The notes under the pieces were generated by a model that saw nothing but the letters and a program-made list of their open reading frames with translations, was not told where the DNA came from and ran no database searches. A stretch of DNA of 64,000 nucleotides from Octopus vulgaris (Eukaryota), in contig OX597822.1 of the NCBI GenBank assembly GCA_951406725.2, forward strand, positions 58,466,001-58,530,000. Direction: 5' to 3'. The position numbers and the translations under genes were made by a program. Each line of letters starts with the position of its first letter. The stretch's first letter is position 1. Positions 6,888 to 51,159 of the stretch are shown here, piece after piece.

Positions 6888-7303
6888 AAGGCGGCGAGCT
6901 GGCAGAAACGTTAGCACGCCGGGCGAAATGCTTAGCGGTATTTCGTCTGCGTTACGTTGTGAGTTCAAATTCCGCCGAGGTCGACTTTGCCTTTCATCCT
7001 TTCGGGGTCGATAAATTAAATACCACTTACGCACTGGGGTCAATGTAATCGACTTAATACCCATGTCTGTCCTTGTTTGTCCCCTCTGTGTTTAGCACCT
7101 TGTGGATAATAAAGAAATAGGTATTTTGTCTGTCGTTACGTTCTGAGTTCAAATTCCGCCGAGGTCGACTTTGCCTTTCATCCTTTGGGGGTCGATAAAT
7201 AAAGTACCAGTTTTGCACTGGGGTCGATATAATCGACCTAATACCTATGTCTGTCCTTGTTTGTCCCCTCTGTGTGTAGCCCCTTGTGGGTAATAAAGAA
7301 ATA
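6888..7303 (+). mobile_element. SINE family B, dimeric (body repeated in tandem)
   Basis: Full head, then body repeated from about 7121 via junction aaagaaatag|gtatttt; same architecture at 50747. Confidence 0.9.
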
Positions 7304-7331
7304 GGTACGTACGGAACCACGAATGTATGTA

Positions 7332-17612: not shown

Positions 17613-17659
<47 letters not shown>

Positions 17660-17794
17660 AGATGTACTTGCATAGCAAGAGATTTGATCTGAGATCGTGT
17701 GCTGGAACGAAAACAATTGCAGCGTGGAAGGTGTTTGTAAGCCATTTAAGTAACACACGAAAGCCGTTCGATTCACTTCAACATTTAAGTTTAA

Positions 17795-17845
17795 TTTGTC
17801 AAAATATTTTCGTCGCTTTAAGACCGCGACCTGTTCACTGACAAA
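17795..17845 (-). ncRNA. Minimal type-I hammerhead ribozyme fold, G3-C8 variant core (mirror copy)
   Basis: Reverse complement: tttgtca-GTGAACA-g-gtcgc(ggtcttaaa)gcgac-GAAA-atat-TT-tgacaaa. Confidence 0.7.
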
Positions 17846-17867
17846 AATCCGTGCTGCATCTCGGATT

Positions 17868-17917
17868 TTTGTCAGTGAACAGGTCGCGGATTTTAGCGAC
17901 GAAAATATTTTGACAAA
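17868..17917 (+). ncRNA. Minimal type-I hammerhead ribozyme fold, G3-C8 variant core
   Basis: tttgtca-GTGAACA-g-gtcgc(ggatttta)gcgac-GAAA-atat-TT-tgacaaa. Confidence 0.7.
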
Positions 17918-18431
17918 TTAAACTTAAATGTTGAAGTGAATCGAACGGCTTTTGTGTGTTACTTAAATGGCTTACAAACACCTTCCACGCTGCAATTGTA
18001 TATATATATATATATATATATATAAAGTGTGAGATGCTTACAGCACCTAGGTTTCCCCAAGCAGTATGTGTGTGTGTATACAAACATTCATGTGTGCGTG
18101 CGCGCGCGTGTATGTGTGTGTGTAAATAAAAGTATAAAACAATTAAAGAATTAGAGAATATAAGGAATAGTAATTTAACCCGTGTATCGTAAATTCAAGG
18201 CAACAGGTAGTAAGTCTGATGTAAATTGGCATCGGTATTATTTTGGCAGCCTACTTTCGACAGGTCAATGTTTTTTCTGAGGTTTATGGAACTTTAAGCA
18301 TTGATAAAAGTACAATTTCTTACGTTTTGCGTTTTCAGTATTGCATCAAGTGATAAAGATACCGGTACGCACTGTAATTTATGTCTGTAGAATAACAATA
18401 TACCTACATACAGATATAGAAATCTCTCACG

Positions 18432-50746: not shown

Positions 50747-51156
50747 AAGGCGGCGAGCTGGCAGAAACGTTAGCACGCCGGGCGAAATGCTTAGCAGTAT
50801 TTCGTCTGCCGCTACCTTCCGAGTTCAAATTCCGCCGAGGTCGACTTTGCCTTTCATCCTTTCGATTAAATAAGTATCAGTTACGCACTGGGGTCGATAT
50901 AATCGACTTAATCCACTTGTCTGTCCTTGTTTGTCCCCTCTGTGTTTAGCTCCTTGTGGGTAGTAGAGAAATAGGTATTTCGTCTGCCGTTACGTTCTGA
51001 GTTCAAATTCCGCGGAGGTCGACTTTGCCTTTCATCCTTTCGGGGTCGATAAATAAAGTACCAGTTTTGCACTGGGGTCGATATAATCGACTTAATCCAC
51101 TTGTCTGTCCTTGTTTGTCGCCTCTGTGTGTAGCCCCTTGTGGGCAGTGAAGAAAT

Positions 51157-51159
<3 letters not shown>
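50747..51159 (+). mobile_element. SINE family B dimer within (AGAT)n
   Basis: Same dimer junction as 6888-7303. Confidence 0.9.

What the first reader, a model, noticed from the sequence alone, without database searches (positions are those of the whole stretch)
17713..17999. Mirror pair of hammerhead ribozymes with a compensatory G3-C8 catalytic core
Seen: each arm of a ~290-bp palindrome in (TA)n folds as a type-I hammerhead, with 7-bp stem I (tttgtca/tgacaaa), 5-bp stem II (gtcgc/gcgac), GAAA and a palindromic mini stem III (aaatattt). The core is GUGAACA instead of CUGANGA. The two copies differ in the stem II loop (ggatttta vs ggtcttaaa) but not in stems or core. Established: C3 and G8 form a Watson-Crick pair in the active hammerhead and a C3G/G8C swap can rescue activity; Penelope-like elements carry minimal, dimer-acting hammerheads in their pseudo-LTRs. 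Inference: a natural covariant ribozyme family that CUGANGA motif searches would miss, able to cleave transcripts from either strand.
Basis: partly seen in the sequence, partly recalled or inferred. Interest (0 to 1): 0.85.

Follow-up and report, generated by a model that had tools for sequence, protein, structure and literature searches.

The report
Swapped-core hammerhead in Penelope retrotransposon
Two head-to-head copies of the end repeat of a Penelope-like jumping gene each carry a small hammerhead-ribozyme motif whose central base pair is reversed (G-C instead of C-G) in thousands of genomic copies; it likely still cuts its own RNA weakly, which is untested, and the mirror layout is likely a by-product of how these elements insert.

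Summary
The motif is real; the 'two-strand cutter' reading is not supported. The palindrome plus a missed 56-nt tail (17657-17999) is a head-to-head pair of terminal repeats (pLTRs) of a Penelope-like element (PLE). About 7,850 motif copies exist, 90 of 100 listed with G3+C8. In other copies the same repeat runs into an RT + GIY-YIG reading frame with young, 99%-identical endonuclease copies. Homologous sister families in the same genome have C3-G8, U3-A8 or U3·G8 at the same columns, so the swap is a natural compensatory change. In a transcript of the whole mirror the hammerhead stems are predicted not to form (p 0.000, against 0.75-0.99 in one arm). 39 of 40 mirror pairs have exactly one tail, as two-site PLE priming predicts. 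Only 1 of 121 arms starts at the predicted cut. Cleavage is untested. I found no natural G3-C8 hammerhead in the papers I could search, but one key paper was unavailable. Two unchecked scan notes report similar motifs in other genomes. Verdict: new variant of a known kind.

The parts
17616..17656 (.). (AT)n target microsatellite, left flank
   Evidence: 51 of 77 family loci have (TA)5 on at least one side
17657..17712 (-). PLE 'tail': 56 nt present on one arm only; lies between the two preferred 3' ends of the family
   Evidence: 3' ends cluster at unit positions 143-152 (45 arms) and 202-208 (62 arms) of 121; homologous tail in sister families B and D
17657..17745 (-). First 29-30 codons of the element's RT-endonuclease reading frame (P0001), cut off by the insertion end
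   Evidence: the same sequence continues into the ORF in L278, L279, L307, L308; 41% identical over 22 aa to the N-terminus of the intact sister ORF
17657..17862 (-). Left arm: complete pLTR end unit (206 nt), from the inferred RNA 5' end to the tail; loop II of the intermediate subfamily
17795..17845 (-). Minimal type-I hammerhead, G3(17838)-C8(17833), extra G 17831, U17 17802; predicted cut 17802/17801
   Evidence: stems p 0.75/0.95 in the single arm
17849..17867 (.). Head-to-head junction of the two arms (5' ends meet); this junction recurs in many copies
17863..17999 (+). Right arm: 5'-trimmed pLTR unit without tail; loop II of the youngest subfamily
17868..17917 (+). Minimal type-I hammerhead, G3(17875)-C8(17880), extra G 17882, U17 17910; predicted cut 17910/17911
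   Evidence: stems p 0.83/0.995 in the single arm
17999..18024 (.). (TA)n target microsatellite, right flank

Best explanation
The locus is a head-to-head pair of terminal repeats of a Penelope-like retrotransposon, each holding a minimal type-I hammerhead whose 3-8 pair is G-C where sister families have C-G or U-A; the motif likely cleaves the element's own single-arm RNA slowly after U17, as a dimer or with help from the element's protein, while the mirror layout is likely a by-product of integration. SHOWN: family membership, linkage to an RT + GIY-YIG frame, fixed G3-C8/U17 across old and young subfamilies, covariation with homologous families, two discrete 3' ends, one tail per mirror pair, variable 9-14 bp target duplications. 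INFERRED steps: (1) the element RNA begins about 20 nt before stem I; (2) the RT-endonuclease nicks both strands of AT-rich DNA and primes at two internal RNA sites just inside the ORF; (3) priming on the 5' repeat copies only about 150 or 205 nt back to the RNA 5' end, giving thousands of short solo units; (4) the two cDNAs, one per target strand, join at their ends and give the mirror with one tail; arms from different subfamilies, as here, imply two RNA molecules per event; (5) only uncut RNA is copied, so cleavage is slow or late; (6) U17 would avoid a trapping G3-C17 pair.
For: 7,849 pattern hits against 6 control hits; 90 of the 100 listed are G3+C8 and none C3-G8 (counted by eye). 146 of 155 arms not selected for double changes are G3-C8, in old (43 of 45) and young (91 of 97) subfamilies; U17 in 160 of 161. 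The pLTR runs into the ORF in L278, L279, L280, L283 and L302, L303, L305, L307, L308, L311. The ORF has RT motifs, a CX3CX2C linker and a GIY-YIG region; its profile matches the Pfam-positive PLE set with probability 97%, E 3e-11. Of 474 hits with both positions 3 and 8 changed, about 61 of the 100 listed are C3-G8, almost all from a sister family. Homology to sisters outside the search motif: z 8.1, 6.6 and 4.6. Columns 3-8 pair in 18 of 18 aligned motifs: CG 6, GC 5, UA 4, UG 3. Related PLEs in metagenomes carry C3-G8 or U3-A8 in 2 of 8 loci and G3-C8 in none. 39 of 40 mirror pairs have one tail; 13 of 26 non-microsatellite loci show 9-14 bp duplications. PMC11167929: a C3G/G8C double mutant partly restores cleavage of a PLE hammerhead, which needs the protein; the PLE enzyme cuts and extends both strands from two RNA sites. 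PMC4209133: the extra nucleotide at 9/10.1, palindromic stem III and opposite-strand pairs are PLE-hammerhead traits.
Against: No cleavage was measured. Only 1 of 121 arms begins at the predicted cut, so the insertion record gives no sign of cutting. Purifying selection inside the family is only suggestive: 1 polymorphic site of 42 in core and stems against 17 of 160 elsewhere, Fisher p 0.077, and part of the core was fixed by my search pattern. Of 6 ORF-linked repeats with a readable core, 3 are intact G3-C8, 2 are G3·G8 and 1 is decayed. The active sister family D has C at position 9, which hints that catalysis is relaxed in this clan. D also has U17 with C3-G8, so U17 need not be compensatory. 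The 6-bp stem III duplex is very weak alone (-0.2 kcal/mol). No fully intact ORF of this family was seen among the places scored. The 18 aligned rows stand for only five related families.
Confidence: 0.6

Rival explanations
1. Same origin and same insertion mechanism, but the G3-C8 motif no longer cuts. The fold is kept only because stems and the stem III palindrome serve as a protein-binding or RNA-dimerising handle that brings two templates together.
For: 1 of 121 arms starts at the cut. PMC11167929 found cleavage dispensable for insertion in vitro and no RNA-seq ends at the cut. The sister family D tolerates C9. G3·G8 occurs in 4 of 155 arms and 2 of 6 ORF-linked cores.
Against: A Watson-Crick or wobble pair is kept at 3-8 in all five families. 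That pair is described as part of the active core (PMC3884650, PMC3088659). U4, G5, A6, A13 and A15.1-U16.1 are invariant in the 18 rows.
Confidence: 0.3
2. One reading: a mirror pair selected to cleave transcripts arriving from either strand.
For: Both arms keep intact stems and core.
Against: In the full mirror RNA both stems have p 0.000. The antisense arm is transcribed first from either side. About half of family loci are single arms. Arms decay like ordinary copies, and the mirror follows the known PLE insertion pattern (PMC8557442).
Confidence: 0.04
3. A MITE or other DNA-transposon foldback whose hammerhead look is accidental.
For: Long inverted repeat in TA-rich targets.
Against: Asymmetric tail, variable 9-14 bp duplications, direct continuity with an RT-GIY-YIG ORF, covariation with canonical motifs, 1 of 20,000 shuffles.
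Confidence: 0.02

Closest known systems
Minimal type-I hammerheads of metazoan Penelope-like elements (Cervera and de la Pena 2014, PMC4209133)
   Same: Located in pLTRs; no real helix III but palindromic 15.2/16.2; unpaired nucleotide between 9 and 10.1; G10.1-C11.1; mostly solo copies; pairs on opposite strands; a natural 3-8 covariant (U3-A8) already reported.
   Different: The 3-8 pair is G-C, not mentioned in the parts and supplement file I saw; 7-bp stem I; found in an octopus-type genome not named in the supplement file searched.
PAc, Poseidon element of Anolis (Frangieh et al. 2024, PMC11167929)
   Same: Hammerhead at the pLTR-ORF junction; two RT start sites define a tail inside the ORF start; AT-rich target; uncut RNA is the template; C3G/G8C partly active.
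   Different: There the swap is an engineered mutant, here it is the natural family state. The tail is about 57-60 nt rather than 30-40. The ORF starts about 55 nt after the hammerhead, and the protein has a CX3CX2C linker.
U3-A8 natural hammerheads (Perreault et al. 2011, PMC3088659)
   Same: Natural covariation of the 3-8 pair.
   Different: Their section on core variation lists U3-A8, not G3-C8; G3-C8 needs two transversions.
C-terminal-endonuclease PLEs with a Zn-finger-like linker, Neptune/Nematis type (PMC8557442)
   Same: RT, CX2-5CxxC linker, GIY-YIG; (TA)n targeting; inverted 5' copy; tail on one end.
   Different: Clade not placed: no reference proteins were available for a tree. The protein is only distantly related to the Pfam-positive PLE family in the same genome.

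Membership tests
Hammerhead ribozyme (type I, minimal) | Core CUGANGA...GAAA...NUH at a three-way junction | tested here: not met
   Literal consensus fails at 3 and 8 (G3, C8); U4, G5, A6, A9, G12, A13, A14, A15.1, U16.1 and H17 are all present.
Hammerhead ribozyme (type I, minimal) | Watson-Crick pair between positions 3 and 8 | tested here: met
   G-C in 146 of 155 arms; paired in 18 of 18 rows over five families.
Hammerhead ribozyme (type I, minimal) | Stems I and II form and covary | tested here: met
   p 0.75-0.99 in single arms. Stem II 93% of cells paired with two-sided changes. Stem I only 60% across families, partly an offset by a bulge in family B.
Hammerhead ribozyme (type I, minimal) | Palindromic stem III allowing dimer action | tested here: inconclusive
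   Palindrome present and A15.1-U16.1 invariant, but the duplex is -0.2 kcal/mol alone.
Hammerhead ribozyme (type I, minimal) | Site-specific self-cleavage after H17 | not testable with these tools
   Only contigs, no raw RNA reads, were available.
Hammerhead ribozyme (Rfam models) | Match to an Rfam hammerhead model | tested here: not met
   No hammerhead hit at E up to 10; two sister motifs with C3-G8 are missed as well, so the test has no power here.
Penelope-like element pLTR | Repeat continuous with an RT + GIY-YIG ORF | tested here: met
   Pfam alone does not call the family's own ORF pieces; 2 of 8 aligned relatives hit GIY-YIG weakly.
Penelope-like element pLTR | Tail at one end; inverted 5' copy; AT-rich or (TA)n target with variable duplication | tested here: met
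   39 of 40 pairs with one tail; 41 of 78 loci head-to-head, none tail-to-tail; 13 of 26 with 9-14 bp duplications.
Penelope-like element pLTR | Assignment to a named clade by RT phylogeny | not tested
   No named reference PLE proteins were available from the tools.
MITE / TIR DNA transposon | Symmetric terminal inverted repeats with fixed-length duplication | tested here: not met
   Asymmetric tail and variable duplication length.
Non-LTR retrozyme | Head-to-tail tandem units each with a hammerhead | tested here: not met
   Only 2 of 78 loci are same-strand pairs, plus one mixed three-part locus; definition from bioRxiv 10.64898/2026.07.22.740005.

The most novel reading that the evidence does not exclude
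A first-described natural G3-C8 hammerhead lineage that is active and has been kept through three successive subfamilies and at least two diverged host species, with U17 selected to avoid a G3-C17 trap. One PLE clan in one genome then uses C-G, U-A, U·G and G-C at the 3-8 pair. Its mixed-arm mirror insertions record that a single Penelope integration uses two RNA molecules, one primed from each target strand, possibly held together by the hammerhead's stem III palindrome.
Probability: 0.35. Interest if true: 0.75.

Novelty: new variant of a known kind. Interest (0 to 1): 0.58.

Why it matters
The C3G/G8C swap has been a laboratory control for the hammerhead's active-site pair; here it is the natural state of about 8,000 genomic copies and of a recently mobile element. 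With sister families carrying the other pairs, this is a ready-made natural series for asking whether PLE hammerheads are selected for catalysis or only for shape, which PMC8557442 and PMC11167929 leave open. It also means hammerhead censuses built on CUGANGA undercount, and PLE families called 'hammerhead-less' should be rescanned with a paired 3-8 descriptor. The one-tail mirror pairs and mixed arms give genomic support for a two-primer, two-template PLE insertion model that can be tested in the existing in vitro system.

Tried and rejected
Rfam: no hammerhead match, and none for canonical sisters either, so uninformative. Canonical-core search with the family's own stem III: 18 hits against 7 controls; 2 were family copies with C3-G8, compatible with chance double mutation. 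The active 781-aa PLE found through Pfam GIY-YIG is not the parent: no pLTR homology, U3-A8 hammerhead. Pattern searches for shared sequence beyond the unit's ends showed no ORF link; the 13 identical downstream flanks on C17 belong to a larger duplicated unit with no PLE frame. A G3·G8 'intermediate subfamily' was looked for and not found: the 4 such arms are scattered over subfamilies. RNA evidence: no RNA holder listed; contigs cannot show ends or strand. A spliced short first exon as the source of the unit's 5' G: a branch-point/pyrimidine/AG look-alike lies upstream, but no fitting donor was found; a start site with a cap-derived G is the alternative, neither is shown. PDB sequence search with the RT piece: 0 hits. 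Not held in the library: Lunse et al. 2017, Martick and Scott 2006, Przybilski and Hammann 2007. The look-up of encoding contigs was closed, so hammerheads next to P0002-P0007 were not seen. No RT tree was built.

Full report
Observation. The palindrome and both hammerhead-like motifs are present as described. A descriptor that asks only for a Watson-Crick 3-8 pair, stems I and II, GAAA and NUH hits just these two places in the window and 1 of 20,000 shuffled arms. Two corrections: there is an extra G between A9 and stem II, and a 56-nt tail (17657-17712) belongs to the element, so it spans 17657-17999 between two (TA)n runs.

The family. A pattern with positions 3, 7, 8 and the extra base left open gives 7,849 hits against 6 for the reversed control. 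Of the 100 listed, 90 have G3+C8 and none C3-G8 (my count by eye). I fetched 78 loci from that list; 77 gave alignments. 41 of 78 are head-to-head pairs, none tail-to-tail, and 34 are single arms. Of 121 arms, 61 begin within five bases of one 5' end, 107 end in one of two clusters about 60 nt apart, and 1 begins at the predicted cut. 39 of 40 two-arm mirrors have exactly one tail. 51 of 77 loci touch (TA)n, and 13 of the other 26 show 9-14 bp target duplications. Seven of these loci share breakpoints and lie in a larger duplicated unit, so they are not independent. Subfamilies differ in loop II and at spacer and tail sites. 1 of 42 core and stem positions is polymorphic (a U-A to U·G change) against 17 of 160 elsewhere; p 0.077, and part of the core was fixed by the search. 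Over all fetched loci, 146 of 155 arms not selected for double changes are G3-C8 and 160 of 161 have U17 (the set includes the 30 loci chosen for likeness to the window copy). Contigs of four public runs under four organism labels, one clearly diverged, show no alternative letter at 5% or more at the core positions.

Parent element. Pfam GIY-YIG led to an unrelated active PLE with a U3-A8 hammerhead. A search for hits changed at both 3 and 8 gave 474, about 61 of the 100 listed being C3-G8 (by eye). Most come from a sister family B, which proved to be the 3' repeat of a decayed PLE. Its endonuclease found an active family D with intact 1,312-aa frames, the same two 3' ends and mirror pairs. 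D's N-terminal region then found the window family's own repeat running straight into a reading frame. That frame has RT motifs, a CX3CX2C linker and a GIY-YIG region, with one stop and one frameshift in the copy read. It is 55% identical to D over 547 aa, and its profile matches the Pfam-positive PLE set at 97%, E 3e-11. Pfam alone does not call it. At least 35 of 150 scored endonuclease copies are 99% identical, so it moved recently. No fully intact frame was seen; the longest is 1,025 aa and lacks its start. The last 90 nt of the window's left arm are the first codons of this frame. Of 6 ORF-linked repeats with a readable core, 3 are intact G3-C8, 2 are G3·G8 and 1 is decayed.

Covariation. 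The family is homologous to B, D and C outside the search motif (z 8.1, 6.6, 4.6; 0, 0 and 1 of 1,000 shuffles). In 18 motifs from five families, columns 3 and 8 pair in all 18: C-G 6, G-C 5, U-A 4, U·G 3. Stem II is 93% paired and A15.1-U16.1 is invariant. Stem I is only 60% paired at fixed register. These rows are five lineages, not 18 events. Related PLEs in metagenomes show C3-G8 (L317) or U3-A8 (L312), each with the extra base, in 2 of 8 loci and G3-C8 in none. G3-C8 is therefore most simply the derived state (inference).

Mechanism. PMC11167929 (main text section read in full, plus passages) shows that a PLE enzyme cuts and extends both target strands, primes at two internal RNA sites that bound the tail, and uses uncut RNA. 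Its hammerhead needs the protein, dies with C3G or G8C and is partly rescued by the double change. This accounts for the two 3' ends, the single tail and the mirror (inference). The window's arms carry loop II from two different subfamilies, as do L157 and L042 among the unbiased loci and L018, L023, L025, L026 among the best hits, with different junctions or tail sides. That points to two RNA templates per insertion. Against this, arms agree at 205 of 227 diagnostic comparisons, and both window arms share an uncommon spacer variant, so conversion between arms is possible. Single arms fold stems I and II with p 0.75-0.99; in the whole mirror both are 0.000 on either strand. PMC3884650 (passages) attributes poor G17 activity to a 3-17 mispair and notes, as data not shown, that G3-C8 works better with G17 than with C17. 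The family's U17, against C17 in family B, would avoid that trap; family D also has U17, so this is only suggestive.

Known or new. PMC4209133 (parts 1-2 of 4; supplement file 2 searched, file 1 not searchable) describes minimal PLE hammerheads with the extra base, palindromic stem III, opposite-strand pairs and a U3-A8 variant. PMC3088659 (core-variation section and passages) reports U3-A8 in nature. PMC8557442 (passages) describes inverted copies, tails and (TA)n targeting and used a CUGANGA string. Searches for a natural G3-C8 hammerhead and for octopus hammerheads found none. PMC13282606 (passages) has no mention of ribozymes. I also saw passages of PMC6765202 and PMC6155905, part 1 of PMC2920678 and part 1 of 5 of bioRxiv 10.64898/2026.07.22.740005. 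Lunse et al. 2017, with its large set of PLE-linked variants (size recalled, not seen), was not available and could contain G3-C8 rows; unseen supplements bear on the novelty claim. Two earlier scan notes describe G3-C8 plus an extra base next to PLE RTs in other genomes; I did not test them. The host looks like an octopus: P0003, which matches family D's frame by inspection, carries such a source name.

Verdict. A real natural compensatory variant of the PLE minimal hammerhead, in an ordinary PLE mirror insertion. It works like a minimal dimer- or protein-dependent hammerhead with about 60% odds of retained activity; membership by cleavage is untested. New variant of a known kind; interest 0.58.

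Noticed in passing
L277:4822-4884 (minus strand); L255, L261, L271, L272, L274: The active sister family D, with intact 1,312-aa frames, has a hammerhead with C3-G8 but C at position 9, normally an invariant A; U17 in young copies and C17 in L255.
   Followed up: partly
L071, L075, L078, L093 (about 1500-1560): Older sister family C mostly shows U3·G8 (some copies U3-A8), a possible wobble state of the 3-8 pair.
   Followed up: partly
L281, L282, L288, L293, L295: A further sister family E has U3-A8, a very short stem I and a 4-nt stem III palindrome, directly upstream of a homologous ORF start.
   Followed up: partly
L129-L135: A young PLE with an intact 781-aa RT-GIY-YIG frame preceded by a separate overlapping frame of about 460 codons (possible frameshift), and a U3-A8 hammerhead near its 3' end.
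   Followed up: partly
L278:130-165; L280, L162, L163, L186, L190, L203: Upstream of the unit's 5' end lies a branch-point-like word, a pyrimidine tract and AG. Copies lacking this upstream often have a G one base before the unit where the element's own DNA has C or T (cap-derived G or exon end; undecided).
   Followed up: partly
L030, L031, L280, L303: C8-to-G occurs in 4 of 155 arms and 2 of 6 ORF-linked cores, more than other changes at that site, scattered over subfamilies; unexplained.
   Followed up: partly
L149, L150 (C17): One family copy sits in a unit of about 7-8 kb repeated at least 13 times on one chromosome; the unit holds LINE-like fragments.
   Followed up: partly
L136:4411-4473: A different PLE family has a canonical C3-G8 minimal hammerhead with an extra U after A9.
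   Followed up: no
window 6937-7307 and 50797-51157: Two-copy tandems of a 184-bp interspersed repeat, at two places in the window.
   Followed up: no
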